DNA from: an uncultured Actinomycetes bacterium
GTDB taxonomy: Bacteria > Actinomycetota > Acidimicrobiia > Acidimicrobiales > RAAP-2
NCBI GenBank assembly: GCA_903871335.1
Contig: CAIQGE010000038.1
Coordinates: forward strand, 1 to 15,255
DNA length: 15,255 nucleotides
Direction: 5' to 3'
Positions 1 through 15,255 of this stretch are shown piece after piece. The translations under genes were made by a program, and so were the position numbers. Under the pieces are notes generated by a model. It did no database searches. It saw only the letters and a program-made list of their open reading frames with translations, and had not been told where the DNA came from. The number at the start of each line of letters is the position of its first letter. The stretch's first letter is position 1.

Positions 1-141
1 GGTAGGGTCCGTGATCACGGGGGTTCTTCCAATCTGTAGGTGTAGAGAACCAACAGACTTGCAGAGCCCCCGCTCTTCGCTAACTCCTAAGCCACAACCG
101 ACCGATCAAATCTCAAAACCACGCGCAAATCCGAAGTTCCT
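1..141. repeat. Left terminal inverted repeat: exact reverse complement of 15115..15255 (141/141 identical). Contains the 12-bp perfect palindrome CCGTGATCACGG at 9..20.
   Basis: Base-by-base comparison of 1..141 against the reverse complement of the window end. The match breaks at 142 (a) versus 15114 (g). The short Pro-rich ORFs inside the repeat read inward identically from both ends. Confidence 0.95.
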
Positions 142-248
142 AATAACACTGTGTACGTCCTCCCGTGTCGACGACGCGACAGCCGAAAAATAGATTTTTG
201 CCATGGTACTAAGAACGGCGAGGAGTGCTCTGTCCGCGACGCGGGGGG

Positions 249-2123
249 TCAGGCCTTCGGGACCGCCGAGACCACGACAACCGAACTGGTGCCGGCGACA
301 TTGGTGGCTACCAACGTGATGTGCACCGCTACCTTGGCCGTCAACGCGCTGAAAGTGGCGCTCTTGGCCGAACTCGCTTCGTGGTACGTCTTCGTCGACT
401 TGCCCTGCTTCACGACGACGACGTAGGAACTCGCGGGACCGCCCGACGTAGCGGCCGTCCACTTGAGTGTCACAGACTTCACTCCACCGACCGCGCTGAC
501 GTGGGTGGGCGCCGCGGGCGCATTCACGGCGTTGAAAACAACCGCCGTGCCGGAAAGAACTTGGCCGTCATTACTGATCGAGGTCACCACGTAGGTGTAG
601 GACGTGCCTCCCATGACGGTGGTGTCCACGCAGGTGGTTGAGGAGGTGACGCAGACCGGCGTTCCCTCACCGGTTCGCTTCACGACGTAGGTCGAGATGC
701 CGGTTCCGATGATCGCGGGCGGGGCCCACGAGACGGTGGCACCGTGCGCGGAGGTTTGGGCGACGGTCACTTGCGTCACACCGTGGGGCAGCGCCATGTC
801 GTACTGCCCCACCACGGCCGCTTGCGCCCCGGATTGGTTGGAGACGTAGCCGGAGTACGTGCAGACGTAGGACGATACGCACGACAGCGTGTTGACGTAC
901 ATGTTCAAGGTGATTTGTCCGTCCAGGCCCGGAAGGACATCGGGGGTGTTCCACGCACCGTTGTCGTAGGTCCAAAAACCAGCGGCGTTCCCATTTGAAG
1001 AGGCGTAGTTTCCGGCAACGACACACGTGGTGGCACTGACACATGACAATGACGACGGCGTCTGGTTCACCGCGTTACTCGAATTCGGGCCGAGAGACTC
1101 CATTGCCGAGTTCCACTTCGTGCCGGTCATCGCGTCCACAAACGTCTCGGTGTACGGGAGGGGAGTGTGATTGTTGATGTAGCTGCCGGTGAGAAGACAC
1201 GATGTTGCGGAAAAGCACGTCGAGGAGAGGTGTCGGATAGCTGACGCGTTGCCGTTGGTCGTAGCGTCGCTCGGTAGAGGCAGGGCGACGGGAGTGCCGG
1301 GAACACCACTTGCGACCGGGATGACCATCGGAATTTCCAAGAAGCTGCCGGTCACGCGATATTCACCGAAGATGTTGCAGTCGGTGGTGTCCCAACAGGA
1401 GATCGAATAGGGAACCCAAAGGCCCGGGTCGAGGGAATTCGATGGTGCGGGCAGAACCTGGGGCGCGGCCCAACTCGTCCCGTTCCAAACGTCGTCGAAC
1501 GTCGCCACCGTGCTGTTCGCGGTGTCGTATTGACCAACGAGCAGGCAGAAGTTCGATGTCGTGCACTTGACGGTCAAGACATCACTGTGCGACGAGGAAC
1601 TCGCCGAGAGGTTGTTCGGGAGGGGCACATTCGTGACGAGCGCGTTGGGAATCCAGGCAATCGCGGCGGTCGTGGAAATTGTCAGAGTCGTGACGAAGGG
1701 GCGCAAACGTCCACCGGTGGTGTAACTACCGACCACCCAGCACGTGATGCCGGCGACGCACGAAATATCCGATGCCGTGACTGGGGTCGCGGTGGAGTTC
1801 GTCGCGTCGAGTGGACCTTCGATGCGCTGCGACGTCAGGACGCTGCCGTTGACGGTCACAACGACGTACGGCCTCGTGATGGCATTGGTGTCCTCGTAGG
1901 AGCCAATGGACATGCACGTCGAGTTGACGCACGACATCTTCGTCAACATTGCGTGGGAGTTGTCCGCTGCTCCACTCGGCAGCAAAGTCAGAGTGGGCAG
2001 GGATATCGTCCCGGTAGCGGCACCGGCACTGGTCACGACCGTGGCGCTCACGCCCGCGGCGAGCATCAGGCTCGCGGCGACGTAGCGCGTCAGACGACGT
2101 CGGATGGCGTATGACGTGTTCAT
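249..2123 (-). CDS. Secreted repeat protein: N-terminal signal peptide, seven ~45-55 aa blades each with a Cys pair (motif S-x-S-C-x4-6-C-x-[AV]-V-G-x-Y), and two C-terminal fibronectin-type-III-like domains. Likely cell-surface or extracellular beta-propeller plus Fn3 protein.
   Basis: The track ORF is 249..2219 (656 aa). An internal ATG at 2121..2123 is preceded by GGAGAAGATC and is followed by MNTSYAIRRRLTRYVAASLMLAAGVSATVVTSAGA, a typical Sec signal peptide. Seven motifs recur, including MSCVNSTCMSIGSY, ISCVAGITCWVVGSY, VKCTTSNFCLLVGQY, SISCWDTTDCNIFGEY, SSTCFSATSCLLTGSY, LSCVSATTCVVAGNY and LSCVSSYVCTYSGY. The C-terminus carries two Fn3-like modules (VSWAPP...YTYVVTSISNDGQVLSG and LKWTAAT...ITLVATNVAGTSS). 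Confidence 0.85.
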   Translation of the reverse strand: MNTSYAIRRRLTRYVAASLMLAAGVSATVVTSAGAATGTISLPTLTLLPSGAADNSHAMLTKMSCVNSTCMSIGSYEDTNAITRPYVVVTVNGSVLTSQRIEGPLDATNSTATPVTASDISCVAGITCWVVGSYTTGGRLRPFVTTLTISTTAAIAWIPNALVTNVPLPNNLSASSSSHSDVLTVKCTTSNFCLLVGQYDTANSTVATFDDVWNGTSWAAPQVLPAPSNSLDPGLWVPYSISCWDTTDCNIFGEYRVTGSFLEIPMVIPVASGVPGTPVALPLPSDATTNGNASAIRHLSSTCFSATSCLLTGSYINNHTPLPYTETFVDAMTGTKWNSAMESLGPNSSNAVNQTPSSLSCVSATTCVVAGNYASSNGNAAGFWTYDNGAWNTPDVLPGLDGQITLNMYVNTLSCVSSYVCTYSGYVSNQSGAQAAVVGQYDMALPHGVTQVTVAQTSAHGATVSWAPPAIIGTGISTYVVKRTGEGTPVCVTSSTTCVDTTVMGGTSYTYVVTSISNDGQVLSGTAVVFNAVNAPAAPTHVSAVGGVKSVTLKWTAATSGGPASSYVVVVKQGKSTKTYHEASSAKSATFSALTAKVAVHITLVATNVAGTSSVVVVSAVPKA

Positions 2124-2240
2124 GATCTTCTCCTGATGTGTCCAGGTTGGCCGGACGTGATTGGCTGGCATGCTAATTCCCGTGACGTGCCAGAGAGCAT
2201 CGCCAGAGGCAACGCTCACGCGTCAGGCCAGCGAAAATCC

Positions 2241-3635
2241 CTACGCCGTTGGTGCGTCGTTTGACGTCACGGACCCTTGAGGCGGGGTCGGTGACGCGGC
2301 GGACGAGTTGGAGATCGTCGTGCTCGTGGCCGACACGCTCTTTCGCAGCGCGTCGTAGATCGTGAGACCTTGTCCGACGATGCCGGAGACAATTTCGGTG
2401 ACTCCTTCGGTGCCGTTGAGCACCGTGAGGTTAGAGCCCTTGATCCCCTCGGCCGCAGCGGTCACGAGTTCGGGCAGTGCGTCGATCAACTTGTTGGCGG
2501 CGATGAGTGCCTGATTGCCTTCAGAGAGAGCGTCGGCGCGCATGTTGATGGCGGCCGCTTCGGCCTCGGCGACCGTGCGCTCGGCGTACGCGTCACCGTC
2601 GGCCTCGTGCTTCTTCGCTTGTGCGTCGGCCTCGGCGCGAATCTTCTCGGCTTCGGCGTTGGCCTCGGCCAATTTACGCAGTCGGTTGGCCTCGGCTTCG
2701 GTCTGGTAGTTGACCGTGTCGCGGCCGGCTTCGGCGATGGTGCGCTGACGGAAGGCGTCCGCTTCGGTCTCGGCTTTCACGCGGTCACGATTCGCATCAG
2801 CGAGGGTACGCGTCTTGTAGGCCTCGGCGTCCGCGGGACGGCGAACTTCGGATTCGAGGCGCTTGTCGGTGAGCTCGGCTTCCTTCTCGGCGAGGATCGT
2901 TTGCTGGGAAATGACGTCCTGGGTCGCCCGGGCCTGCGAGAGAGGTCCGGCCTGGGCGGCCGCGGCCTTGGCTTCTTCGATCTCCGCGTTGAAGCCGGCG
3001 GTCTTGATCTCGGTGTCACGCATGTACTGAGCCTTTAACGCCGCGGCGGTCTGCTCCTGCTGGGTGGCTTCCTGGTCCGCCTTGGCGCTGGCGATACGAG
3101 CCTGCGACGCAATGGCCGCGGCGTGAGGCGCCGCGATGTTGTCGATATAACCGGAGGAGTCTTCGATCTCTTGAATTTGAATCGAGTCAACGACGATGCC
3201 GAGCTTCTCCATCTCGCCGTGGCTGCCGTCCTTCACCTCTTGAGCGAGACGGTCGCGCTCACGAATGATCTCCTCGACGGTCAACGATCCGATGATCGAG
3301 CGAAGGTGACCCGCGAAGATACGGCCCACGAGTTCTTCCATGTTGTTCTGCTCGGCCAAGAAACGTCGAGCGGCGTTCGCAATGGATGCGGCGTCGTCAC
3401 CGATCTTGAAGGCGGCAATGGCGCGCACGTGGAGACGGATTCCCTGGGTCGTGATGCACTCCTCCGTGATCTCGGACTCGCGCAGCGAGAGGGAAAGATA
3501 GCGGGCCTTTTGCTTGATCGGAATAACGAAGCAACCGTGGCCGGTGACGATGCGAAATTGCGTGTCCTGATCACCGCGACGGGATCCGGAAATGAGCAGC
3601 GCCTCGTTCGGGGCGGGAACGTACCAGAACAGCAT
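2241..3635 (-). CDS. Flotillin-like SPFH/band-7 domain protein (YqiK/FloT type). It has a long Ala/Glu/Lys-rich coiled-coil region and an unusual Ser/Thr/Pro-rich C-terminal tail.
   Basis: The track ORF is 2241..3761. An internal ATG at 3633..3635 is preceded by GAGGAGACATC, an SD 4 nt upstream. It is followed by MLFWYVPAPNEALLISGSRRG...FRIVTGHGCFVIPIKQ...LSLSLRE, the N-terminus typical of bacterial flotillins. The SPFH core is then followed by a long AEAEA/KAE-rich repeat region, as in flotillins. Confidence 0.85.
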   Translation of the reverse strand: MLFWYVPAPNEALLISGSRRGDQDTQFRIVTGHGCFVIPIKQKARYLSLSLRESEITEECITTQGIRLHVRAIAAFKIGDDAASIANAARRFLAEQNNMEELVGRIFAGHLRSIIGSLTVEEIIRERDRLAQEVKDGSHGEMEKLGIVVDSIQIQEIEDSSGYIDNIAAPHAAAIASQARIASAKADQEATQQEQTAAALKAQYMRDTEIKTAGFNAEIEEAKAAAAQAGPLSQARATQDVISQQTILAEKEAELTDKRLESEVRRPADAEAYKTRTLADANRDRVKAETEADAFRQRTIAEAGRDTVNYQTEAEANRLRKLAEANAEAEKIRAEADAQAKKHEADGDAYAERTVAEAEAAAINMRADALSEGNQALIAANKLIDALPELVTAAAEGIKGSNLTVLNGTEGVTEIVSGIVGQGLTIYDALRKSVSATSTTISNSSAASPTPPQGSVTSNDAPTA

Positions 3636-3651
3636 GATGTCTCCTCGAGAG

Positions 3652-3870
3652 TCAGTACGGCGTGACGAGAACGGTGCGACCAGAAATGATCTCCACGACG
3701 ACGACGCGGGAGTTCTTCGTGATCTCCTCGTCCGCCAGGGCCTGATAGGCCTCGACGCCACCGCGAATGGGAATCATGACTTCGCCAGGGCGACCGTCAC
3801 TGATGGGGACCGACACACGGCCAATAGCGCCAACGACTTCTTGGCTCAATTCTTCCGACATGTTGGCCAA
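3652..3870 (-). CDS. Short NfeD-like protein containing only the C-terminal OB-fold beta-barrel, immediately upstream of the flotillin gene (nfeD-floT operon arrangement). No N-terminal membrane segment is present.
   Basis: The 72-aa ORF ends in the ...RVVVVEIISGRTVLVTPY beta-barrel motif typical of NfeD-short (YuaF-like) proteins. A TTG start at 3868..3870 is directly preceded by AAGGAGAT; the ATG three codons in is an alternative start. The gene ends 14 bp before the flotillin start. The yuaF-yuaG/nfeD-floT operon pairing is established knowledge. Confidence 0.6.
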   Translation of the reverse strand: MANMSEELSQEVVGAIGRVSVPISDGRPGEVMIPIRGGVEAYQALADEEITKNSRVVVVEIISGRTVLVTPY

Positions 3871-3924
3871 ATCTCCTTATATTGCTAAGCACCAACGTAG
3901 CCGTCCATCTTCCTTTGGGGCAAG

Positions 3925-3936
3925 GGTGAATTCACC
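3925..3936. promoter_or_regulatory. 12-bp perfect palindrome GGTGAATTCACC in the putative promoter region about 55 bp upstream of the nfeD-floT operon. Candidate operator for a dimeric regulator.
   Basis: Seen directly in the sequence. Its reverse complement is identical to itself. It lies in the 306-bp non-coding gap upstream (minus strand) of the nfeD start. Confidence 0.3.
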
Positions 3937-4176
3937 TCATAAACGGTCTCGAGTTCCGTCGCACCGACTCGAAGTGAAAGTGGCGAGTACGACGACAGTC
4001 ATCGAGTTGACGAGGCGATTGAAATCAGCGCGTCGCGCAGGAGGATTCCCGGACCGAAGGGTTCTGTGGCGTCGGTCGGTCCGCTGATGTCGAAGGTTCG
4101 CGATACCAGCAACGAGGGCGGGTGCCCATCACCTTCGGAACGTTTGGGAGGTGATTTATGGCTGCTGGCTTATGGT

Positions 4177-4458
4177 CTATTTGTCACGAGACCTTCGGAA
4201 GAGCGCGAGCATGACTCCGATCCATAGCGTTAGTGCACTCAGCCACAGCCATCCGGGTGCGTCGAGAACACTTGCGGCGTCAGCGGGTCGGCTGCAGGTT
4301 GAACCGTGACACGCGGACGAGAACGGTGAGATCAATTCGTGGTCGTAGTGATGAAGTGACTTTCCAATGGCGACGACCAGGACGAAGAGGACACATCCCC
4401 AGACGATTGAACACGCCGCGCGAACCATTAAGCGAGCCCGCGCCGCGTTCATGCTCAC
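4177..4458 (-). CDS. Small hypothetical membrane protein with two predicted TM helices and a Cys-containing loop (CHGSTC). It sits 48 bp downstream of the secreted BNR-propeller gene and may be co-transcribed with it.
   Basis: The 93-aa ORF has two hydrophobic stretches (SIVWGCVLFVLVVAIG and WLWLSALTLWIGVMLALF). It has a GTG start with a weak SD; an ATG two codons downstream is an alternative start. I recognise no homology. Confidence 0.3.
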   Translation of the reverse strand: MSMNAARARLMVRAACSIVWGCVLFVLVVAIGKSLHHYDHELISPFSSACHGSTCSRPADAASVLDAPGWLWLSALTLWIGVMLALFRRSRDK

Positions 4459-4506
4459 AAATATATGGACGCCCGCGACTGCAGTCTCTTACATACCGTC
4501 CGCGAT

Positions 4507-5649
4507 CTAGTGGGGCGTACCGCTCTGGGACCACGTGGAACCGGAATTGCGTGAGATCAAGGTTGTCGGGTGATACGGATCATTTCCAATGTCGCCCACC
4601 GCGATGCACGTTGGCAATTGGGCGCACGACAGACCGTTGATGTCCGCGAGATGAGGGGTCGTAACAACGCCGAAATGGACACCATTGCCACTTCCCAAGA
4701 ACTGGGTCAAGTCGGCGTACGACGTTGAAGCGGAATATCCGGTCGCGAAGCAGTGAGCGGCGCCCCAACAACCCACCCAGGCCAGTTGGTCAACGTCACG
4801 GGCGACGGGAACGCTCTTGAAGATTGATCCCGAGACCGTTGACAAGTACGCCACCGACGAAGCGAGGGAAGCGGACACGCCCACCTCGACGCAAAATGCA
4901 GCAGTGACGCACGTGGCACTGGTCAGCATTGAGGCGTGGACGAGGTCGTCGTGATCTAACCACGTGGCACCCCGGTCGGTGGTGGTGGACATGGCGCCCA
5001 CCTGTCCCGATATCTGACCATCCGCACCGACGAGAAGACAGCTTCCTGACGGCAGGCACGACACGCTTTCGGCGATGGAAATATTGAAGGGCAGCGTCTG
5101 GCTGTGCCACGTCTTCCCGCCGTCGAGACTTTGCAGTTCAACACCCGACGTGATCAAGGAGCCGTCGGTGGTTGGCACGTAGTGGAGTCCGGAGGCTTGA
5201 CACCAGGTCGGTGTCGGGCAGGTCACCGAGAGCAGCTTGGAGGCGATCGCGGGAACGGCCACGCGGTGCCAGGTTGCGCCGCCGTCGGCGCTGAGGATAA
5301 TGACACCAGCGGTCACCTTGGTGTTGTAGCCAACGGCGACACACGTCGTGCGGGACGCACACGCCACCGCACTGAATCCACCGGCTCCGGCGGGCACCGT
5401 GACACGCGCCCACGATGCTGAATGATCTTTCGACCGGTAGATGGCGGTACCGGAATTCGATGAGAGACCCACCTGTGCACCGCTCGCGAGGCAGTCAGTA
5501 GTTGACGGGCAGGCGATGGATGTCATGGTGCCATCGAGGGGTGCGACACGCGGTGCGACCGATCTCGCGGTGGCGGCGCCCGACGCAAAGTTCGCGGACG
5601 CGGCTACCGCCAGTATGAGAATTCCCGCCAACCATTTCAATCGCTGCAT
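4507..5649 (-). CDS. Secreted seven-bladed BNR (Asp-box) beta-propeller-like protein. Each blade carries both a Cys pair (S-x-x-C-x5-C-x-A-x-G) and an Asp-box-like motif (S-x-D-G-G-x-T-W). It has a Ycf48-like or sialidase-like propeller architecture.
   Basis: The track ORF is 4507..5733. An internal ATG at 5647..5649 is preceded by GAGGGAGCTTGCA and starts MQRLKWLAGILILAVAASANFASGAATA, a signal peptide. Seven Cys-pair motifs are present: SIACPSTTDCLASG, VACASRTTCVAVG, SVTCPTPTWCQASG, SVSCLPSGSCLLVG, SATCVTAAFCVEVG, VGCWGAAHCFATG and LSCAQLPTCIAVG. Asp-box-like motifs are SADGGATW, SLDGGKTW, TTDRGATW and SRNSGSTW. Confidence 0.8.
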   Translation of the reverse strand: MQRLKWLAGILILAVAASANFASGAATARSVAPRVAPLDGTMTSIACPSTTDCLASGAQVGLSSNSGTAIYRSKDHSASWARVTVPAGAGGFSAVACASRTTCVAVGYNTKVTAGVIILSADGGATWHRVAVPAIASKLLSVTCPTPTWCQASGLHYVPTTDGSLITSGVELQSLDGGKTWHSQTLPFNISIAESVSCLPSGSCLLVGADGQISGQVGAMSTTTDRGATWLDHDDLVHASMLTSATCVTAAFCVEVGVSASLASSVAYLSTVSGSIFKSVPVARDVDQLAWVGCWGAAHCFATGYSASTSYADLTQFLGSGNGVHFGVVTTPHLADINGLSCAQLPTCIAVGDIGNDPYHPTTLISRNSGSTWSQSGTPH

Positions 5650-5779
5650 TGCAAGCTCCCTCTGTTCGAAGTCGTCGGCCGTCTCATTACCGGACAAACG
5701 CAAGATTTCAAATCGGCAACGTCGTGCCATCACTTTGCCACGACCACGCCCGGTCGAGGTTGCGGAAATGTCGAGAAAC

Positions 5780-6301
5780 TCAGTGAGGCGACGTCGTCGA
5801 TGCGCGTCGTGTCGCTCCGCGACCCGGTCGAACAGTCACGTCACGAACGGTGAGGTCGTGTCCTTCCGTGCACCGCACAGAAACGGTTACCGCCGACCCG
5901 CAGGCGCTGTGTGATAACTCGACCGGCGGACCCTCGGGAGCGAGCCACTTGTCGCCCCATTGCATGAGGGCAACGACCGGGACGAAGGCGTCGCGACCCA
6001 TGTCGGTAAGTCGGTAGGCGAGCCTTTCCCGATCGCCGGCGTCTTGGTACGGCACGCGCGTGAGAAGTCCTTCTTCGACGAGGTGTCGTAGTTCATTCGC
6101 GACGACCGGTTCACTCAGTCCCGTCCGCCGAACGAATTCGTCAAAACGCGTGCTTCCGTAATACGCCTCGCGCAGAAGCAACATGTTCGAGCGCTTCCCG
6201 ATCAACTTGACGGCACGGTCCATCGAGCACGCCGCAGCCGACCAGGCGTCGCGATCGTGCAGGGCAGTGGTGAAGCGAACACGGTCGGGTGTGTCAGACA
6301 T
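5780..6301 (-). CDS. HxlR-family (DUF24/MarR-like winged-helix) transcriptional regulator. It has an N-terminal Cys in the position of the redox-sensing Cys of YodB/HypR-type members and an unusual ~55-aa C-terminal extension.
   Basis: The sequence ...AACSMDRAVKLIGKRSNMLLLREAYYGSTRFDEFVRRTGLSEPVVANELRHLVEEGLLTR... is the hallmark HxlR HTH region. The track ORF starts at TTG 6308..6310. I prefer the ATG at 6299..6301 (MSDTPDR), which has TAGGAGAT about 10 nt upstream. The gene is divergent from the MFS gene with only ~40 bp between the start codons. Confidence 0.8.
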   Translation of the reverse strand: MSDTPDRVRFTTALHDRDAWSAAACSMDRAVKLIGKRSNMLLLREAYYGSTRFDEFVRRTGLSEPVVANELRHLVEEGLLTRVPYQDAGDRERLAYRLTDMGRDAFVPVVALMQWGDKWLAPEGPPVELSHSACGSAVTVSVRCTEGHDLTVRDVTVRPGRGATRRASTTSPH

Positions 6302-6341
6302 AACTTGCAATCTCCTAAGTCAGAGCGTAGGGTCTCTCACT

Positions 6342-7766: not shown

Positions 7767-7768
7767 CG

Positions 7769-8560: not shown

Positions 8561-8686
8561 CCTTCACGTAGGAACCCCCGCACCAACTTCTTGTTGAACG
8601 CAGACCTCTGTTTTGCGGTCCTTTCTCGTCGTCGTAAACTGAAGCGTCGCGGGAGGAACGTGTACGTCTGCTCGAGCGTTGAAGAA

Positions 8687-9478
8687 ATGTTGACTCTCGA
8701 GAGAGTCGACGCCACGATTTTCCGCGGACAAAATGGTCCCGCGAGCCCGCGGCAGGCCCTTTACGGTGGCCAAGTGGCGGCGCAGTGCTTGATGGCGGCG
8801 GCGGCGACGGTGCCCGAAGGTAGATCTCCTCACTCACTGCACGGCTACTTCCTGCGACCGGGATCCGTCGACTTACCCGTCGTCATGGAAGTGGACCTCG
8901 ACCGTGATGGTCGAAGTTTCTCCGCTCGCCACGTCAACGCTCTCCAGAACGGGAAAGTGATCTTCTCGATGGTGGCCTCTTTTCACGAAGAGCGCCCGGA
9001 ACCTTCCTTTGACGCCGCGCCACGGCGAGAGGTTCCCGAGCCCAAGAAGGATCCGTCGTCGCACAGCTGGAACACGATCATCGACGTGATGGACGTCACG
9101 CCGTTCGACCTCGCGACCGGACGGTTCCCGGACTGTATGTGGGTCAAGACGACCGATCCTTTACCGAACGACCCCATCATGAATGCGGGTGCCTTGGTCT
9201 TCCTCTCGGATCTTGGTTCAGGTTTCGGGCAGGTAGATGCGGGACTTTCGGGACGCGGGGGTCCCAGCATCGATCACGCGATGTGGTTCCAGGAACCCAT
9301 TCGGGCCGATGAGTGGGTTCTCCTCGACCTCATTCCCGTCAAGGCATGGTCGGCGCGCGGGACCTATCACGGCTCGCTTCGCGATCAGAGCGGACGCCTC
9401 GGAGCCACGGTGTACCAGGAACATCTTCTGCTCCCCATGTCGGCACTTCGGCCTACTTCCCCGAGCCCAAACCCATAG
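8687..9478 (+). CDS. tesB: Acyl-CoA thioesterase II (TesB).
   Basis: MLTLERVDATIFRGQN...PRQALYGGQVAAQCLMAA...HSLHGYFLRPG...VDLDRDGRSFSARHVNALQNGKVIFSMVASFH aligns by eye with the E. coli TesB N-terminal hot-dog domain (LLTLLNLEKIEEGLFRGQS...FGGQVVGQAL...HSFHSYFLRPG...[21 protein letters not shown]). The start could alternatively be GTG 8661, which sits after GGGAGGAAC. Confidence 0.85.
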   Translation: MLTLERVDATIFRGQNGPASPRQALYGGQVAAQCLMAAAATVPEGRSPHSLHGYFLRPGSVDLPVVMEVDLDRDGRSFSARHVNALQNGKVIFSMVASFHEERPEPSFDAAPRREVPEPKKDPSSHSWNTIIDVMDVTPFDLATGRFPDCMWVKTTDPLPNDPIMNAGALVFLSDLGSGFGQVDAGLSGRGGPSIDHAMWFQEPIRADEWVLLDLIPVKAWSARGTYHGSLRDQSGRLGATVYQEHLLLPMSALRPTSPSPNP

Positions 9479-9597
9479 TTCCGTCGGGCCCATTTGAGCG
9501 CTGGATGTCGCAAAATCCGAACGTTCACGGGATGAATACTTTTTGTCCTACAGTGTCGTTTTGAGACCGATTTATCGAGCGGAACCCGGAGATAAAT

Positions 9598-11934
9598 ATG
9601 CAAGCCACCCGACCACTACTTAGATTCGGGCTGTGTACCGCGCTTGTGGTTTCAATCGGAACATTCGCGCTGACGCTGTCGGCAAGCGCGGTTCCCACTA
9701 GCTACTTGCCGCTTTACGGCACGACCGTGCCGGCCTCGTCGGCCACAACGGGAACCGGACAATTGAGTTCGATTAGTTGTGTGGACGCCACGCATTGTGA
9801 ATCGGTTGGCCTCTACGCAACGAACAACACTGGACCGCTGGGTGTCTACGCCCAGAGCATCGTCGCGGGAGTTGCCGGAACCCCGACGGCTCTTGCGTCG
9901 GGCGCGGATGATGCCAGTACGGCGCCTTCGATTTCCTGCTTTGACGCGAACGATTGTGTCGCTGTATTCGCCGTTGGTTCCGGCACCACCGCGACGACTG
10001 ACGTCGCCACGGAAACTTCAGGCTCGTGGTCAGTGACTTCGCCCTTCAGCGCACAAACTTTGGCGCAGGGAATTTCGTGCGTTGCGGCCTCGTCATTTTG
10101 CGCGGTCGTAGGTGAGTTGACGAACTCCAACCGTGCTTTCGGTGTCACCTTGTCCGCCGGCGCTTGGGGGACGATGCAGACCATTAATGACGTAGGTTCC
10201 CCGACGCACTCCACTGACTTGGTCAGTGTGTCGTGTTGGAGTGTTGGTAATTGCATGGCCGCGGGAAATTTCAATGTGGGAGCACCTTCGTATTTCGGAC
10301 GGTCTCCATTCGTTGCTGGACTGTCCAGCGGTTCGTGGATCGCAACACCTGGCGGCGGTTCCAATTCAGGCACCAATTCGTCGAGCTACAACTCGATTTC
10401 CTGTCCCTCCGCGACAACCTGTTTGACCGCTGGCACGTCTAATGGCATTGCGTTCACCCAAGAGTTCTACGGAACTCGCTGGTATTCGATAGATCTCGTT
10501 CAGCTGCCTACGAATTCGTACGTTCTATCCAACGCTTCGAGCGTGTCGTGCGTCGATGCGAGCGATTGCGTCGTCGTCGGTTCGTATCAAACTCAAACGC
10601 TGGGCGAACAAGCCTTCTATGGTTCAGACTCCATTACCAACGGCGATCTCAATGGCAATGTCCATGCAAATGTTGTCACCTCGCCTTATTCCGGCACCAT
10701 TGACCCCGTGGGCGTTCAGGCCTACTTGAATTCCGTTTCGTGTCCTTCGACATCGAATTGTGAGTTTGTGGGTAGTTACAACACGGACATCAATAGCGAT
10801 CCCACCCTGCCGGCATTTGGTGGTTCAGGAACGCCTCCTCCGAGCGCGCCGACCTCCCTGTCAGCCCTGCCCGGGAATCACTCGATCACGGTGTCCTGGT
10901 CCGCTCCGCTAGCGAATGGAAGTCCGAGCCCCACGAGTTACACGGCGTACGCCGGATCGAATTCGTGCACGACCAAGGGCCTCAGCTGTACGGTCACCGG
11001 TCTTATCAACGGCCAGACGTATCAAGTCACGGCTGCTGCTTCGAACGCCAAGGGTCAAGGGCCCGTTGCGGACGCAATCTCAGGATTTGCTGCCGGAGTT
11101 CCCGACCCGCCCACTGTCGTCTCGGTGGTACCGGGAGCGAAGTCCGCGCTCGTGACGATCGCTCCTCCGGCAAATAACAACGGCGCGCCAGTGACGAGCT
11201 ACACCTATTACTGGGCGGTTGGATCAAAGGTAACGATGGCGGGTTCCATCACTGGTCTGTCGTGGGATCTCGCTGGACTACCAAACGGCGCGACCGTTAG
11301 TTTCTACGCCACGGCGACGAATGTCACCGGTGCGAGCGCGCCGGCAACGCCCGTGACCGTCACGTTGCCCGAGCTAGCTGGTGCGCCCACCAACGTGGTA
11401 GCTATTGGAGCGGCGTCGACAATCACGGTGAGTTGGAACGCCAGTACCTTGGGCGCCACGGCGACCAGTTACACGGCGACCGCTACCGAACCTTCATTTG
11501 AGGGGTCTGGTTCTTTCACCTGCACAACTACAACAACCACTTGCACGATTACGGGTCTCGGCCTCCACAAGTCATTTTCTGTGACCGTCGCGGCGAACAA
11601 TGCCGTTGGGTCGAACGCGTCGAACAGCGTGCAGACATTTACAACCACCTCTCCAGTCGGGCCCCCTGGTGCAGTGACGGCTCTGACGGCGAAGGGCAGC
11701 AAGACCTCAATTGCCTTGAAGTGGAAGGCACCCAAGAATCACGGCGCGGGTATTGGGAATTACATCGTCTACGAGTACGTGAGTTCTGCCTGGGTGCAGG
11801 TGGCCACACCCGTCCTTGCGAATGTCAGTATTTCAAAGCTGTCGTCAAAGACGAGCTACAAGTTTGAGGTCGTGTCCTACGCGATGGACGGTCAAACTTC
11901 CAAGCCCGTCACCGTATCCAGCAAAACAACCTGA
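9598..11934 (+). CDS. Secreted repeat protein: signal peptide, seven Cys-pair blades (C-x5-6-C) and four tandem fibronectin-type-III domains. It is a paralog of the 249..2123 and 4507..5649 products.
   Basis: The ATG at 9598 is preceded by GGAGATAAAT. The signal peptide is MQATRPLLRFGLCTALVVSIGTFALTLSASA. First Cys of the pairs fall at aa 61, 114, 161, 213, 269, 318 and 382, a period of ~47-64 aa. Motifs include SISCVDATHCESVG, SISCFDANDCVAV, ISCVAASSFCAVVG, VSCWSVGNCMAAG, SISCPSATTCLTAG, SVSCVDASDCVVVGSY and SVSCPSTSNCEFVGSY. Four ~90-aa Fn3-like modules run from about nt 10850 to the stop. Confidence 0.9.
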   Translation: MQATRPLLRFGLCTALVVSIGTFALTLSASAVPTSYLPLYGTTVPASSATTGTGQLSSISCVDATHCESVGLYATNNTGPLGVYAQSIVAGVAGTPTALASGADDASTAPSISCFDANDCVAVFAVGSGTTATTDVATETSGSWSVTSPFSAQTLAQGISCVAASSFCAVVGELTNSNRAFGVTLSAGAWGTMQTINDVGSPTHSTDLVSVSCWSVGNCMAAGNFNVGAPSYFGRSPFVAGLSSGSWIATPGGGSNSGTNSSSYNSISCPSATTCLTAGTSNGIAFTQEFYGTRWYSIDLVQLPTNSYVLSNASSVSCVDASDCVVVGSYQTQTLGEQAFYGSDSITNGDLNGNVHANVVTSPYSGTIDPVGVQAYLNSVSCPSTSNCEFVGSYNTDINSDPTLPAFGGSGTPPPSAPTSLSALPGNHSITVSWSAPLANGSPSPTSYTAYAGSNSCTTKGLSCTVTGLINGQTYQVTAAASNAKGQGPVADAISGFAAGVPDPPTVVSVVPGAKSALVTIAPPANNNGAPVTSYTYYWAVGSKVTMAGSITGLSWDLAGLPNGATVSFYATATNVTGASAPATPVTVTLPELAGAPTNVVAIGAASTITVSWNASTLGATATSYTATATEPSFEGSGSFTCTTTTTTCTITGLGLHKSFSVTVAANNAVGSNASNSVQTFTTTSPVGPPGAVTALTAKGSKTSIALKWKAPKNHGAGIGNYIVYEYVSSAWVQVATPVLANVSISKLSSKTSYKFEVVSYAMDGQTSKPVTVSSKTT

Positions 11935-12065
11935 GATCGCAGTATCTCGGCTCGTTGGATTTGCGAAGGAACAGGACTTCGTGGTGGAAGTGCCGTCACC
12001 AGCCAATCGGCACTGCGCCGGATCGAGATGGTGCATGACTCCGGACGCGGGTAGCAGGTCGAGGC

Positions 12066-12086
12066 GCTTCACCGTGTGAAGCCTTT
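12066..12086 (+). terminator. Candidate intrinsic terminator for the Fn3 gene: 7-bp GC-rich stem GCTTCAC/GTGAAGC with a 3-nt loop followed by CTTT.
   Basis: The hairpin was read directly from the sequence. The U-tract is short, which is common in high-GC genomes but lowers confidence. Confidence 0.3.
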
Positions 12087-12242
12087 GAGAGGGTTGCACG
12101 TCTGTCTCGGCGACATTGACGAGTAAGAACCGCGACCCTACCGAGGTGTGGTTCGTCACATTCGGGCCTTGCAAAATTCACCAAAGTCATTGGTCCGTGT
12201 GGGCACGCTGTTCTACGCTGCGGAAGAGCCGAGGAGGTCGCC

Positions 12243-14063
12243 GTGTCCCTTTCAGTCTTGCGAACCGTACGTCGAGGAGTTCTTGCGGGATCTCTGCTTC
12301 TCGGTACCACACTCCTAGCGGCAGGAGAGGCTGCCGCTAGCGCGCCAACCTTTACCACGATCGCACAACTCCCTACTGCGATCGACAGTCATAACGAGTC
12401 CTTTGAATTTCACCCAGCTTTTCTTCCCAACGGACAACTGGCAGTCTTCGATACGTTCTTGAACACGATCTCGGTGATGAACGCGGACGGCACAGATCAG
12501 CAACCGATTGCAAGCTTGCCGCTCAATGTCGACGGATCGAACTTGATCTACGACACGTCATTGAAGGCACTGGCAATTGTTGCGGACCGGCCGACTATTT
12601 CTTCGACGCTTGAACTCTTCTCTCCCTCAGGAAGTCTGCTGGCCTCCTTGGACGTCTCCAGCACGGTGCAGAACGTCACGTCACTGGCCCAAGGTCCCGG
12701 TGGTGAAGTGCTCCTCGGTTCCACGACAGGCCTTTACGGCGTGAACGTACAAATGTCGTCAAGTTCACCCGCCGTCTACTCCCTCGGTAACTCGAACAAC
12801 ATTGCGAGTGGCCCTGTCACCGGTGCGGCCGCTACCTCGACGGACATTTTCGTCTGTACCACGGGGGCGATGCAGGAGTACACGGTGTCGGGTTCATTCG
12901 TAACGAATATTTCGGGGAACTCCGGTTGCTCGTCGCCGACGATTGACGGTGGCAGTCTGCTTGATTTCGCGGGGAGCACGACAATGCTCTTTACCCAAAA
13001 TCTTCAGAGCATGTCCATGTCGACCTTCGCGACCTCGACTCTGGCAACACTCGGTTACCAGTACGCACCCGGTTTCACGACGGGTTCGTACGAAGATCTT
13101 GCTGTCATGCCGAGCAACGTCGTTGGCGGCACGCCCGGTGGGTTGATTTTGTCGGAGTTGAATACCCAATCCATTCCGAACTCCGCGGGTCGTGCTCTCT
13201 TGCCACTCTTGTACGCCACCAATGCTTCGGGCGCGCTGGGTAGCTACAAGTGCATCGCGGTTGCCAGCACACCAAATGATCTTCGCTACGTCAACGTGAT
13301 TGCGAATCCGGTGGCAAATACCTTCGATTTCGTTGACCAATGGGGTGGCACAGTGACGCAGGTGTCATCTTCGGGCGCGCAAGCCACCAATATCATCTAC
13401 AACTACCGCGCACCTGATCTGCTGTCAACGGATCAGTTCGGTTATTACCCCGTTTCCGCGGCGATCGACGCGAAGAAGAAGTACCTGTTCACGCTCGACG
13501 CTATGAACCGTGTTCGACGATTTGCGTCAACTGGTGGGTCGGGCCTGCAGGGAGCGCTGCTGGCGACGCGTCAGGTCGCGGGGAGTCCGGGAAGCACCGT
13601 TCCGTTGCTCGCTACTTCTCTCGCTGTGAACAATTCCTTGGTCTACCTGGGATTCAACAATGATGTGTATTCCGAAACAGAGACGGGTAGTGCGCCGAAG
13701 CGTGTGCTCGCTGCTCCTCAATACGACACGATTGCCAGTATGAAGTCGGGGCCGAACGGCGACTTGTTGATCACCGCGACCGGTGCAGTGCCCGAACTCT
13801 ACGTGTACTCCTCAACCGGAAAACTGGTGAAGTCGATCAAGTGGTCGTTCGGGGAACCCGCGTCATCTGACATTGACAGTTCCGGTCACGTCTGGATTGT
13901 TTCTTCTACGGGCGATCTGTACGAGTCAACGTTGACGAGCTCAAGAGTGACGAAAGTTACAACCGGCAACTTCACGGATGTCGCGACGAGTTCGAACGGA
14001 ACGATCATGCTCGTTGAGCCCACCACAGTGGTCGCAACAACGGCGGTGCAACTCGGCCTGTAG
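12243..14063 (+). CDS. Secreted hypothetical repeat protein, probably a beta-propeller-like fold. Cys-poor, with an N-terminal signal peptide and a possible twin-arginine motif.
   Basis: The GTG start at 12243 is preceded by the strong SD GAGGAGG with a 5-nt spacer. The N-terminus MSLSVLRTVRRGVLAGSLLLGTTLLAAGEAAASA has an RR-x-V-L pattern followed by a hydrophobic stretch and an ASA cleavage site. Degenerate repeats such as GDLLITATG...LYVYSSTGKL and GHVWIVSSTGDLYES resemble NHL/YVTN-type blades. The ORF is 606 aa. Confidence 0.75.
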   Translation: MSLSVLRTVRRGVLAGSLLLGTTLLAAGEAAASAPTFTTIAQLPTAIDSHNESFEFHPAFLPNGQLAVFDTFLNTISVMNADGTDQQPIASLPLNVDGSNLIYDTSLKALAIVADRPTISSTLELFSPSGSLLASLDVSSTVQNVTSLAQGPGGEVLLGSTTGLYGVNVQMSSSSPAVYSLGNSNNIASGPVTGAAATSTDIFVCTTGAMQEYTVSGSFVTNISGNSGCSSPTIDGGSLLDFAGSTTMLFTQNLQSMSMSTFATSTLATLGYQYAPGFTTGSYEDLAVMPSNVVGGTPGGLILSELNTQSIPNSAGRALLPLLYATNASGALGSYKCIAVASTPNDLRYVNVIANPVANTFDFVDQWGGTVTQVSSSGAQATNIIYNYRAPDLLSTDQFGYYPVSAAIDAKKKYLFTLDAMNRVRRFASTGGSGLQGALLATRQVAGSPGSTVPLLATSLAVNNSLVYLGFNNDVYSETETGSAPKRVLAAPQYDTIASMKSGPNGDLLITATGAVPELYVYSSTGKLVKSIKWSFGEPASSDIDSSGHVWIVSSTGDLYESTLTSSRVTKVTTGNFTDVATSSNGTIMLVEPTTVVATTAVQLGL

Positions 14064-14453
14064 GCAGAAGATTGTCGGTCGATCTTCGAATGCCGAGGTG
14101 ATCCGAAGAAGATCCGTCATCCCATACTTTGGCGGGAAAACAGGAGACTCGGGAAGCACTGCATCGAATGAGTACGCGGGGAAGCATCAACGACGGTGCG
14201 GTGGACGTCGCGGCGACGTAGATCCGAGAATTAACAAGTGGAGTCAGGTTCAGCAGGCACACTCAGCAACCCGACACGCGAATGCGACTTGACCGATGAC
14301 TCTTCGGACCAAAATGGATGTGAGCTATGACACTGGAATATGAATGAGGGCTGGACCCGAAACCTGCAAATGGTTCTTGAAGTTGCTAGCGGGTAGTGAC
14401 TCCTCTTGTATCCGGCGGAGACATGGCCGTCATGTCGCAGCCGAGGCATCTTG

Positions 14454-14825
14454 ATGATTTCCGCGCTGGCTGGAGTCGCCATTCTCGCTAGCCTTATCCT
14501 CCTACCGTGGTTCGCTGTTCGATCGATTGACCCGATCCTTTCTTTCGACGGCGCGGTGTCTGCCAACGTCAGTGGGGGACTATGTGTCACTGTGTTTTGG
14601 TTCCCCATATTTGCTGTCACGAGACCTATGGCACGTGTCACGGTGAACCGTGACGGCTTACTCCTCCGGCCTATTTGGGGACTCCCACCGATTATCGCGG
14701 TCAGGTGGACCGACATGAGTTACGTAGAGGTCAAACTGGGGAAGATTCGATTTTCTCCTCCGAACCGCCGGTGGTGCAGGTTGTGGTTGGCTGGCTTGCC
14801 ACCGCTCTCGCTCGGTGACGAATGA
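14454..14825 (+). CDS. Small membrane protein with two TM helices followed by a beta-rich domain, possibly a bacterial PH-like domain. Hypothetical.
   Basis: The track ORF 14406..14825 starts with TTG. The internal ATG at 14454 (MISALAGVAILASLILLPWFAV) has GAGG 7 nt upstream. A second hydrophobic segment is LCVTVFWFPIFAV. The C-terminal part RVTVNRDGLLLRP...VRWTDMSYVEVKLGK is PH-domain-like. The region has lower GC and weak codon bias. Confidence 0.35.
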   Translation: MISALAGVAILASLILLPWFAVRSIDPILSFDGAVSANVSGGLCVTVFWFPIFAVTRPMARVTVNRDGLLLRPIWGLPPIIAVRWTDMSYVEVKLGKIRFSPPNRRWCRLWLAGLPPLSLGDE

Positions 14826-14884
14826 TCATCCGTCGTGTCGCAGGGCACACGTGACGAGGCGTCAGTGACTGAGATCAACTAGAC

Positions 14885-14972
14885 CAAAAAATGAGGGGCT
14901 CTACATTGGGAAGTCAGTCGGATCGAAACTCGCCTCGCAGAGGCGCCTCGTGCGGGTCTGTCCGATTTTTTG
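14885..14972. other. Structured element: the 8-bp A/T arms CAAAAAAT and ATTTTTTG bracket a ~70-nt GC-rich core. The core contains a 6-bp hairpin (CGCCTC-gca-GAGGCG) and the 10-bp palindrome GAGGCGCCTC. It may be a bidirectional terminator or a small structured RNA.
   Basis: The inverted 8-mers are at 14885..14892 and 14965..14972, the hairpin at 14931..14945 and a T6 run at 14966..14971. All were read directly from the sequence. Confidence 0.25.
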
Positions 14973-15114
14973 TGTAAGTGACGTGATCGGGTGCACTGCC
15001 TAGTTGAAGCGATCGCCGTAGTGGATGGCGAGAGTGTTGAGGACACTCTTCCAGTTTCGCACGCGGCCGACGACATTGCCGCCTCTTCCGTTGGTTCTTC
15101 GGATCGTGAGATAG

Positions 15115-15255
15115 AGGAACTTCGGATTTGCGCGTGGTTTTGAGATTTGATCGGTCGGTTGTGGCTTAGGAGTTAGCGAAGAGCGGGGGCTCTGCAAGTC
15201 TGTTGGTTCTCTACACCTACAGATTGGAAGAACCCCCGTGATCACGGACCCTACC
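15115..15255. repeat. Right terminal inverted repeat, partner of 1..141 (palindrome CCGTGATCACGG at 15236..15247).
   Basis: Same comparison as for the left repeat. Both shared-prefix ORFs (11..193 + and 15000..15245 -) diverge exactly at the repeat boundary. Confidence 0.95.

What the first reader, a model, noticed from the sequence alone, without database searches (positions are those of the whole stretch)
1..15255. Whole window is bounded by a perfect 141-bp terminal inverted repeat
Positions 1..141 are the exact reverse complement of 15115..15255, and the match stops cleanly at 142/15114. Three readings are possible:
- (a) The window is a de Bruijn contig whose first and last k-mers are reverse complements. 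141 is the default largest k of MEGAHIT. Such a contig terminates inside two inverted copies of a longer repeat (an IS or other repeat) that flank this 15-kb segment.
- (b) It is a genuine terminal-inverted-repeat element, either composite-transposon-like or an invertible segment.
- (c) It is a hairpin or fold-back assembly artefact.

No transposase or recombinase lies inside, which argues against an autonomous element. If the segment really is bracketed by inverted repeat copies, it is a candidate for inversion or mobilisation as a unit. The repeat carries an internal 12-bp palindrome, CCGTGATCACGG, which is a plausible protein-binding site.
Basis: partly seen in the sequence, partly recalled or inferred. 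Interest (0 to 1): 0.7.

Follow-up and report, generated by a model that had tools for sequence, protein, structure and literature searches.

The report
Contig ends inside two ISL3 copies
The 141-base inverted repeat is where a k=141 assembler stopped inside two oppositely oriented copies of an ordinary 1.4-kb ISL3-family insertion sequence that flank a normal chromosomal segment, so it is not a new kind of element.

Summary
In detail: 1-141 is the exact reverse complement of 15115-15255, and position 142 differs.

- **What the arms are.** Each arm is nt 1-140 of a 1425-bp ISL3-family insertion sequence, plus one flank base that matches by chance. Those 140 nt hold the left inverted repeat, the leader and the first six codons of the transposase.
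- **Why 141.** It is the assembler's k. Sibling contigs are named k141_*, and the contig on the far side of the left copy starts with exactly the last 141 nt of the IS.
- **How the copies got there.** Both are simple insertions with 8-bp target duplications, and all four junctions were recovered. The left copy (TAATAACA) sits at the start of an NHL-repeat gene. The right copy (GAGATAGA) sits inside the 3' end of a resident IS256-family element.
- **Independent events.** Other samples carry alleles with only one insertion, and the left site also occurs empty without the right side being seen. The 15-kb segment is therefore native chromosome and not cargo moved as a unit.
- **The palindrome.** The 12-bp palindrome overlaps the transposase GTG start. 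Coding and translation-start constraints explain its conservation better than a dedicated binding site does.
- **Open point.** Two short contigs in other samples join the right outer flank, through the IS, to the segment's left end. That hints at an IS-mediated inversion but does not prove one.

Interest is low.

The parts
1..140 (-). Inner 140 nt of the left ISL3-family IS copy. The IS sense strand is the window's minus strand and the transposase reads leftwards out of the window. IRL is at window 140-118, the leader follows, and the probable GTG start is at 18-16.
   Evidence: 100% identical to nt 1-140 of the complete 1425-bp IS in L009. The transposase of that IS scores 288 bits against NF033550 (cutoff 180) and 7.8e-55 against PF01610.
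141..148 (.). 8-bp target-site duplication of the left insertion, TAATAACA (TGTTATTA on the other strand). Base 141 (T) also matches the right-hand target by chance and completes the shared 141-mer.
   Evidence: The empty site in L005/L002 has one copy. The window has it next to IRL, and L013 has it next to IRR followed by the NHL gene.
9..20 (.). 12-bp palindrome CCGTGATCACGG, mirrored at 15236-15247. It overlaps the probable GTG start codon of the ISL3 transposase and the spacer after a GGAAG Shine-Dalgarno-like motif.
   Evidence: In six relatives the sequence reads GTG ATC ACx GAC CCT, with ACG/ACT/ACC and ATC/ATT changes at third codon positions. The last G of the palindrome is such a wobble base. 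The window has seven 12-bp palindromes against 4.4 in shuffles.
149..14945 (.). Native chromosomal segment. Genes: fn3 protein 249-2123(-), Band_7/SPFH 2241-3635(-), BNR protein 4507-5649(-), HxlR regulator 5780-6301(-), MFS transporter 6342-7766(+), two acyl-CoA thioesterases 7763-8560(+) and 8687-9478(+), fn3 protein 9598-11934(+), unknown 606-aa protein 12243-14063(+).
   Evidence: Pfam hits and gene calls on sibling contigs. The segment is continuous with its outer flanks, without the ISL3, in L002/L005, L011 and L012 on the left and in L001 on the right.
14946..14953 (.). 8-bp target-site duplication (CCTCGTGC) of the resident IS256-family element.
   Evidence: The same 8-mer flanks both ends of the intact element in L001, at 14946-14953 and 16372-16379.
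14954..15115 (-). 3'-terminal 162 nt of an IS256-family element: the terminal inverted repeat from 14954, plus the last 37 transposase codons and the stop (15113-15000). It is cut off by the ISL3 insertion.
   Evidence: L001 carries the intact 1418-bp element (14954-16371), whose 430-aa transposase scores 411 bits against NF033543. The window's C-terminal peptide matches it at 38/40 residues, E = 9e-25; the first three aligned residues of that peptide are read from the ISL3 tip.
15108..15115 (.). 8-bp target-site duplication of the right insertion, GAGATAGA.
   Evidence: The empty site is in L001. The outer junction in L023 reads ...GGTCC[TCTATCTC]GGGGCTTCGG(IRR). The predicted read-through protein exists exactly as P0154, while the 7-bp and 9-bp duplication controls do not.
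15116..15255 (+). Inner 140 nt of the right ISL3-family IS copy. The sense strand is the window's plus strand and the transposase reads rightwards out of the window. IRL is at 15116-15138 and the probable GTG start at 15238-15240.
   Evidence: 100% identical to IS nt 1-140.

Best explanation
The window is a MEGAHIT k=141 unitig. It covers a roughly 15-kb piece of an actinobacterial chromosome (probably Acidimicrobiales-like) bracketed by two identical, oppositely oriented copies of a 1425-bp ISL3-family insertion sequence. In both copies the left end (IRL) faces the segment. The assembler collapses the two copies, so the contig can extend only to the last k-mer shared by both junctions. That k-mer is 140 nt of the IS plus one flank base that coincides, which gives a 'perfect 141-bp terminal inverted repeat' that stops cleanly. 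Each copy arrived by ordinary transposition and made its own 8-bp target duplication. One landed at the 5' edge of an NHL-repeat gene. The other landed in the last 40 codons of a resident IS256-family transposase gene. Directly shown: the identity of the arms, all four IS/flank junctions, both target duplications, and alleles in other samples that lack one of the two insertions. Inferred: that both copies are full length and sit in the same genome in the window's own sample. This follows from the absence of a branch to either empty-site allele at the contig ends.
For: - The repeat is exact over 141 nt and stops at 142.
- Sibling contigs of the same locus are named k141_*. L013, on the far side of the left IS, begins with exactly the last 141 nt of the IS.
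- The arms are 100% identical to nt 1-140 of an IS that is complete in L009: 1425 bp, IRL GGAACTTCGGATTTGCGCGTGGT, IRR GGGGCTTCGGACTTCAGCGTGGT. It recurs at 99.8% in L010.
- Its transposase is ISL3 family: NF033550 288 bits against a cutoff of 180; PF01610 7.8e-55; PF14690.
- Left insertion: the empty site has one TGTTATTA (L005), the window has TGTTATTA|IRL, and L013 has IRR|TGTTATTA followed by NHL.
- Right insertion: the empty site is in L001. The predicted 403-aa read-through protein across an 8-bp duplication exists exactly, on 26 contigs, and the 7/9-bp controls are absent. L023 shows the junction DNA.
- Alleles with one insertion only: L001 has the left IS and an intact IS256; L002 has an empty left site and the right IS. 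L011 and L012 also show the left site empty.
- Relatives of the IS mostly sit on 1.4-2.5-kb contigs, as collapsed repeats do.
Against: No reads or assembly graph for the window's own sample were available. That both copies lie in one genome, and that both are full length there, is therefore inferred. Two contigs that run through a whole copy of this IS at other sites (L009, L010) lack clean target duplications. I attribute that to chimeric paths through a collapsed repeat. Some sibling contigs are 15249 nt instead of 15255 nt, which I could not explain without their DNA.
Confidence: 0.93

Rival explanations
1. Same structure, but the segment also inverts. Homologous recombination between the two 1.4-kb inverted IS copies flips the 15-kb segment, and both orientations exist in natural populations. 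This adds to the best explanation and does not exclude it.
For: Two contigs from different samples (ERZ1426834 and ERZ1426560) have the order truncated IS256 gene, ISL3 transposase, 624-aa fn3 gene, Band_7. The gap from transposase to fn3 is 252 nt in both, exactly as predicted if IRL abuts window position 141, the left end of the segment. That is the hybrid arrangement, with the right-hand target duplication on one side of the IS and the left-hand one on the other, expected after inversion. No native-order contig running through the IS appeared among the six places shown.
Against: Both orientations produce the same four junctions and the same contigs. A short-read assembler crosses a collapsed repeat only when one branch on each side is lost, and half of such accidental paths would look inverted, so two out of two is not significant. 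Both contigs are short (5.7 and 6.8 kb), and their DNA could not be read. One has 1.4 kb upstream with no called gene, unlike the L001 context. L009 and L010 show that contigs running through this IS can be chimeric.
Confidence: 0.3
2. The unit of IS, 15-kb segment and IS is a composite transposon that was acquired or moved as one piece.
For: Two identical IS copies in inverted orientation bracket the segment, the same layout as in Tn5 or Tn10 (my own knowledge). This ISL3 lineage appears recently active, with identical copies at several sites.
Against: Each IS copy has its own matching 8-bp duplication, whereas a composite transposon would have one duplication around the whole unit. The segment is continuous with the same outer flanks where an IS is absent (L001, L002, L011, L012). 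The cargo is housekeeping-type genes. Single-insertion alleles exist.
Confidence: 0.03
3. The two junctions come from different strains in the sample, one with only the left IS and one with only the right, and never occur together in one genome.
For: Both single-insertion alleles exist in other samples (L001 and L002).
Against: A comparable mixture would put a branch to the empty-site allele at 140/141 and at 15115/15116, and the unitig would then not include the 141-mer at either end. If one strain dominated, the contig would run on through the empty site, as L001 and L002 do. About 15.25-kb contigs of this locus are the commonest form across samples.
Confidence: 0.05
4. The repeat is a fold-back or hairpin assembly or library artefact, or the ends of a genuine linear replicon with terminal inverted repeats.
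For: The perfect identity and the length equal to k could suggest an artefact.
Against: Only the terminal 141 nt are palindromic and the interior is unique. Each junction recurs in independent samples and continues into real flanking DNA. The window has no replication or terminal-protein genes.
Confidence: 0.01

Closest known systems
ISL3-family insertion sequences (for example the ISL3-type element Tn7546 described in PMC9782665, with inverted repeat GGGTCTTCGGA and an 8-bp direct repeat)
   Same: A single DDE transposase with the ISL3 zinc ribbon, helix-turn-helix and DDE_Tnp_ISL3 domains. Size 1425 bp. Imperfect terminal inverted repeats of about 23 bp starting GG..CTTCGGA. 8-bp target duplications.
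   Different: The transposase is at most 39% identical to annotated ISL3 transposases on sequenced plasmids. The closest named relatives, at about 60% identity, are labelled only 'ISL3 family transposase [Acidimicrobiales bacterium]'. It is probably an unnamed member; I could not consult ISfinder.
IS256-family insertion sequences
   Same: The 162-nt remnant at 14954-15115 is the end of a 1418-bp element with terminal inverted repeats of about 35 bp, an 8-bp target duplication and a 430-aa Transposase_mut protein.
   Different: In the window it is interrupted by the ISL3 copy (a nested insertion). It is a bystander and not the source of the terminal repeat.
Composite transposons bounded by inverted IS copies (Tn5 and Tn10 type; my own knowledge)
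   Same: Two identical IS copies in inverted orientation bracket a DNA segment.
   Different: Each IS has its own target duplication and the segment is native to its location, so there is no sign that the unit ever transposed.
Repeat-induced contig breaks in de Bruijn graph assemblies (MEGAHIT with k-max 141, as used in PMC12952284)
   Same: The contig ends carry exactly k bases of the collapsed repeat. Neighbouring contigs begin with the complementary k bases of the same IS.
   Different: Nothing differs. The only special feature is that both ends fall in the same end of the same IS, which gives an inverted instead of a direct terminal repeat.

Membership tests
ISL3 family IS | DDE transposase matching the ISL3 family profile | tested here: met
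   The L009 copy, 100% identical to the window arms over IS nt 1-140, encodes a 422-aa protein. It scores 288 bits against NF033550 (cutoff 180), 7.8e-55 against PF01610 and 1.6e-08 against PF14690. The gene body lies outside the window.
ISL3 family IS | Imperfect terminal inverted repeats of the GG..CTTCGG type | tested here: met
   IRL GGAACTTCGGATTTGCGCGTGGT and IRR GGGGCTTCGGACTTCAGCGTGGT. Compare GGGTCTTCGGA in PMC9782665.
ISL3 family IS | 8-bp target-site duplication | tested here: met
   Left copy TGTTATTA. Right copy GAGATAGA. A relative has CGTGATCA and GAGTAAGG. Contigs running through the IS (L009, L010) were unreliable for this test.
IS256 family IS (remnant at 14954-15115) | Transposase_mut/IS256 profile, terminal inverted repeats, 8-9-bp duplication | tested here: met
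   The intact copy in L001 scores 411 bits against NF033543, has 40-nt arms at 83% complementarity, and has the duplication CCTCGTGC. The window fragment matches its C-terminus at 38/40 residues.
Composite transposon | One target duplication flanking the whole IS-cargo-IS unit, with the unit present at a non-native site | tested here: not met
   Each IS has its own duplication. The segment is continuous with the same outer flanks in alleles that lack an IS.
Site-specific invertible switch (Hin/Gin or FimBE type) | A dedicated invertase or recombinase gene within or next to the segment, and short inverted crossover sites | tested here: not met
   No recombinase domain was found in any major ORF. 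The repeats are whole IS copies.
IS-mediated inversion by homologous recombination | Both orientations of the segment relative to the outer flanks observed | tested here: inconclusive
   Two contigs without readable DNA show the inverted linkage with exact geometry, but chimeric paths through the collapsed IS cannot be excluded.
De Bruijn graph contig-end overlap | Terminal repeat length equals the assembler's largest k, and neighbouring contigs share k-length ends | tested here: met
   The repeat is 141 nt, sibling contigs are named k141_*, and L013 starts with exactly 141 nt of the IS. The window's own assembly parameters were not available.
Linear replicon with terminal inverted repeats | True molecular ends, with replication or terminal-protein genes | tested here: not met
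   Both ends continue into flanking DNA in other assemblies, and no such genes were found.

The most novel reading that the evidence does not exclude
The 15-kb segment, carrying two fn3 surface-type proteins, an SPFH protein, an HxlR-MFS pair and two thioesterases, exists in both orientations in natural populations because the two inverted ISL3 copies recombine. The flip also changes which gene lies downstream of each outward-reading IS end, for example at the NHL-repeat gene whose annotated start the left insertion displaced. That would make it a naturally segregating IS-mediated inversion polymorphism in an uncultured freshwater-type actinobacterium.
Probability: 0.3. Interest if true: 0.35.

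Novelty: new member of a known kind. Interest (0 to 1): 0.15.

Why it matters
It matters mainly as a caution. A perfect terminal inverted repeat whose length equals the assembler's k marks a contig that stops in two inverted copies of a repeat. It is not evidence of a new mobile element. For this locus the work identifies an apparently unnamed, recently active ISL3-family IS in uncultured actinobacteria. Its insertions are polymorphic between samples, one of them nested in an IS256 element, so it could serve as a strain marker. It also flags a possible IS-mediated 15-kb inversion that long reads could test in an afternoon. None of this challenges current understanding.

Tried and rejected
- **First hypothesis, rejected.** I first thought the 141-mer was the interior of the IS256-like gene whose C-terminus follows the right arm. 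L001 shows the intact IS256 gene without the 141-mer.
- **Profile scans of the short end peptides.** Pfam and NCBIfam found nothing, and tblastn of the 41-aa peptide against plasmids found nothing. The IS256 identity came from L001 and from one weak blastn hit.
- **IS110/bridge-RNA, group II intron and att-site ideas.** I considered these because the IS256 target resembles the IS tip in 8 of 9 bases. I dropped them once the ISL3 transposase and 8-bp duplications were found.
- **RNA searches.** Rfam and tRNA scans of the window gave no hits. The leader's RNA fold is no better than shuffles (z = -0.95), and no promoter or terminator consensus was found.
- **Target duplications from contigs that cross the IS.** L009 has the imperfect pair GGATAAGT / ACTTAAGT. 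L010 has none, and its outer 4 nt differ. The MAG copies in L006 and L007 are decayed and have no recognisable IRR. I used outer-junction contigs and a predicted read-through protein instead.
- **Other dead ends.** The viral contig scan was empty. An exact look-up of the 656-aa longest-ORF form of the first gene failed because the called start is different.
Full report
**1. The observation.** Window 1-141 is the exact reverse complement of 15115-15255. It is the only long inverted repeat in the window, and the next best is 38 nt at 71%. Read inward from each end, base 142 is A on the left and C on the right, and no similarity follows. The palindrome CCGTGATCACGG is at 9-20 and 15236-15247.

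**2. What the window encodes.** GC content is 55-67% with no compositional break. There are no tRNA genes or Rfam families. The main ORFs are ordinary chromosomal genes:
- two fn3-domain proteins
- an SPFH/Band_7 protein
- a BNR-repeat protein
- an HxlR regulator divergent from an MFS transporter
- two acyl-CoA thioesterases
- a 606-aa protein with no Pfam match

No intact transposase or recombinase gene is present.

**3. Sibling contigs show what lies beyond each end.** An exact-protein look-up of the 778-aa fn3 protein found the same locus in many public assemblies, with contigs named k141_*, the MEGAHIT naming at k=141.
- L001 (27 kb) starts at the same base as the window with the same 141-mer. 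On the right it follows the window only to about 15118-15123 and then continues into an intact 430-aa transposase gene.
- L002/L004 (64.5 kb) ends at the same base as the window's right end. On the left it joins the window only from about position 141 and continues into an NHL-repeat gene.

So the 141-mer belongs neither to the left neighbour gene nor to the right-hand transposase gene. It is a third sequence that abuts the segment at both ends. In L003 a diverged copy of the same sequence (82% identity) is inserted at a different place, window 14273/14274. That marks it as the end of a mobile element family.

**4. Identity of the 141-mer.** I scanned the public collections with the stretch conserved between the window copy and the L003 copy. 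This found four loci. In L009 the sequence continues into an ORF, and the complete element is 1425 bp (L009 1486-2910). Its ends are IRL GGAACTTCGGATTTGCGCGTGGT and IRR GGGGCTTCGGACTTCAGCGTGGT. Its 422-aa protein matches the ISL3 transposase model NF033550 at 288 bits (cutoff 180). It also matches PF01610 (7.8e-55), the ISL3 zinc ribbon PF14690 and the ISL3 helix-turn-helix.

Both window arms are 100% identical to IS nt 1-140. Base 141/15115 is therefore flank. It is the first base of two different target sites (TAATAACA, and TCTATCTC read inward), which share a T by chance. That is why the last k-mer common to both junctions is 140 + 1 = 141 nt long. In both copies IRL faces the segment, so the two IS copies are inverted and their transposase genes read outwards.

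**5. The right-hand neighbour is a resident IS256-family element.** In L001 it spans 14954-16371 (1418 bp). It has 40-nt arms at 83% complementarity and the 8-bp duplication CCTCGTGC, and its transposase scores 411 bits against NF033543. The window keeps only its last 162 nt (14954-15115). The encoded C-terminus matches at 38/40 residues. The ISL3 copy is nested in it.

**6. Both ISL3 copies are simple insertions.**

Left copy:
- the empty site (L005) reads ACACAG TGTTATTA CGAAGCATC
- the window, on the reverse strand, reads ACACAG TGTTATTA|GGAACTTCGG (IRL)
- L013, a 46-kb k141 contig with 23 similar places, starts with exactly the last 141 nt of the IS and then reads TGTTATTA CGAAGCATC into the NHL gene

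Right copy: I predicted that an 8-bp duplication (GAGATAGA) would make the IS256 transposase gene read through into IRR. That gives residues 1-395 plus GASDFSVV, 403 aa in all. This exact protein exists in the collection (P0154, 26 contigs, 38 index blocks), while the proteins predicted for 7-bp or 9-bp duplications do not. L023 shows the DNA...GGTCC[TCTATCTC]GGGGCTTCGG..., followed by 98 nt identical to the IS.

A related 1420-bp element has perfect 8-bp duplications at two further sites. These features match published ISL3-type elements, for example inverted repeat GGGTCTTCGGA with an 8-bp direct repeat (PMC9782665).

**7. Independent, polymorphic insertions.**
- L001 has the left IS and an intact IS256.
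- L002 has an empty left site and the right IS.
- L011 and L012, from JGI metagenomes, also have an empty left site.

The insertion alleles are the more frequent ones in the collection. P0144, the 605-aa NHL form, is on 33 contigs, against one or two contigs for each 622-aa form. P0154 is on 26 contigs, against 14 for the intact P0155.

The window carries the full 141-mer at both ends with no branch to either empty-site allele. The dominant genotype in its sample should therefore have both insertions. This step is inferred, not shown. The segment is native chromosome and was not delivered as composite-transposon cargo.

**8. Why exactly 141.** With k=141 the two identical IS copies collapse into one path. 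The 141-mer vertex has two outgoing edges, one to each end of the segment, so the unitig through the segment begins and ends with that vertex in opposite orientation. MEGAHIT runs commonly use k-max 141 (for example PMC12952284; that it is the default is my own knowledge). The outer limit of the repeat is therefore set by the assembler. The inner limit is the real IS tip plus one coincident base.

**9. The palindrome.** In the IS the palindrome lies 21 nt upstream of the ATG and contains an in-frame GTG. Across six relatives the sequence reads GTG ATC ACx GAC CCT AyC ... ATG. The changes ACG/ACT/ACC, ATC/ATT and CTC/CTT fall at third codon positions, and a conserved GGAAG lies 6-7 nt upstream. 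Many gene callers start the protein at this GTG (429 aa, P0001). The final G of the 12-bp palindrome is one of those wobble positions, and only GTGATCAC is invariant. The window has seven 12-bp palindromes against 4.4 expected.

The whole leader is conserved (86% mean column identity). Its predicted fold is no better than that of shuffled sequence (z = -0.95), and no sigma-70 consensus was found. Coding and translation-start constraints therefore explain the palindrome better than a dedicated binding site. This is suggestive, not proven.

**10. An unexpected hint of inversion.** Among contigs carrying P0154, two short ones from different samples (ERZ1426834 and ERZ1426560; no DNA held) run through the whole IS. 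Their gene order is truncated IS256 gene, ISL3 transposase, 624-aa fn3 gene, Band_7. The transposase-to-fn3 gap is 252 nt in both, exactly the value predicted if IRL abuts window position 141. This links the right outer flank to the segment's left end, the arrangement expected after recombination between the two inverted IS copies.

Both orientations yield the same four junctions, however. A short-read assembler crosses a collapsed repeat only when branches are lost, and L009 and L010 show that such crossings can be chimeric. I rate a real inversion polymorphism at about 0.3. My contig look-ups were exhausted, so I could not pursue it further.

**11. Verdict.** The terminal inverted repeat is the k-limited view of two inverted copies of an ISL3-family IS, each a simple insertion, around a native 15-kb chromosomal segment. 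The IS seems to be an unnamed member of a well-known family: at most 39% identity to annotated plasmid ISL3 transposases, and relatives labelled only 'ISL3 family transposase [Acidimicrobiales bacterium]'. Interest is low.

Noticed in passing
Contigs without DNA in ERZ1426834 (6795 nt) and ERZ1426560 (5696 nt); relates to window 141 and 15115: The gene order truncated IS256 gene, ISL3 transposase, fn3 (624 aa), Band_7 links the right outer flank through the IS to the LEFT end of the segment, with an exact 252-nt gap. It is either a real IS-mediated inversion or a chimeric assembly path. One of the two contigs also has 1.4 kb upstream with no called gene, unlike the L001 context.
   Followed up: partly
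L017, L018, L020: 803-810 and 2231-2238 (IS at 811-2230): A related 1420-bp ISL3 element is inserted into the leader and start-codon palindrome of another ISL3 element, duplicating CGTGATCA. The 8-bp target is the palindrome core itself. L008 and L009 flanks show another palindromic 8-mer, ACTTAAGT, so this lineage may prefer palindromic or AT-rich targets.
   Followed up: partly
window 15116-15123 compared with L001 15116-15123: The IS256 sequence immediately after the right-hand target site (GGACCTTC) matches the ISL3 IRL tip (GGAACTTC) in 7 of 8 bases. This could be chance, or a preference for inserting next to sequences that resemble the IS tip.
   Followed up: no
window 141-149 (minus strand); L005 11975: The left ISL3 insertion separates the annotated GTG start (window 149-147) of the 622-aa NHL-repeat ORF from its body. 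Genomes carrying the IS have it called as 605 aa (P0144). The IS transposase reads in the same direction as the NHL gene, so the insertion may change that gene's expression.
   Followed up: partly
window 9042/9043; L003 1-9445: In sample ERZ27313078 the second acyl-CoA thioesterase gene is interrupted by at least 9.4 kb of different DNA. It encodes a 519-aa tyrosine recombinase (Phage_integrase), a DndB-like protein and an ADP-ribosylglycohydrolase, and is probably an integrated island. The same contig also has the diverged ISL3 copy at window 14273/14274.
   Followed up: no
IS nt 64-80 (window 77-61 and 15179-15195); alignment A1 columns 64-80: A small hairpin in the transposase leader shows compensatory changes among relatives: AGAGC-GGGG-GCTCT, AGGGC-GGGG-GCCCT, and AGGGC-GGGG-GTCCT with a G-U pair in the sense strand. 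With only three variants and no significant overall fold, its function is unknown.
   Followed up: partly
L019 2700-2882: In one copy of the related ISL3 the usual leader is replaced by tandem GGCCACCAG[CT]GG-type repeats next to an IS21-type pair (rve plus IstB). This looks like another nested IS event.
   Followed up: no
Contig in ERZ1426607 (15249 nt) and 19 similar places: Many sibling contigs of this locus are 15249 nt instead of 15255 nt. A 6-nt difference is not explained by a standard odd k. It may be an indel or a different assembly setting, but no DNA was available.
   Followed up: no
L009 1478-1485 and 2911-2918; L010 4134-4137: Contigs that run through the complete IS have mismatched flanks: GGATAAGT against ACTTAAGT in L009, and none in L010, where the outermost 4 nt of IRL also differ. 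This fits either chimeric paths through a collapsed repeat or IS-mediated rearrangements.
   Followed up: partly
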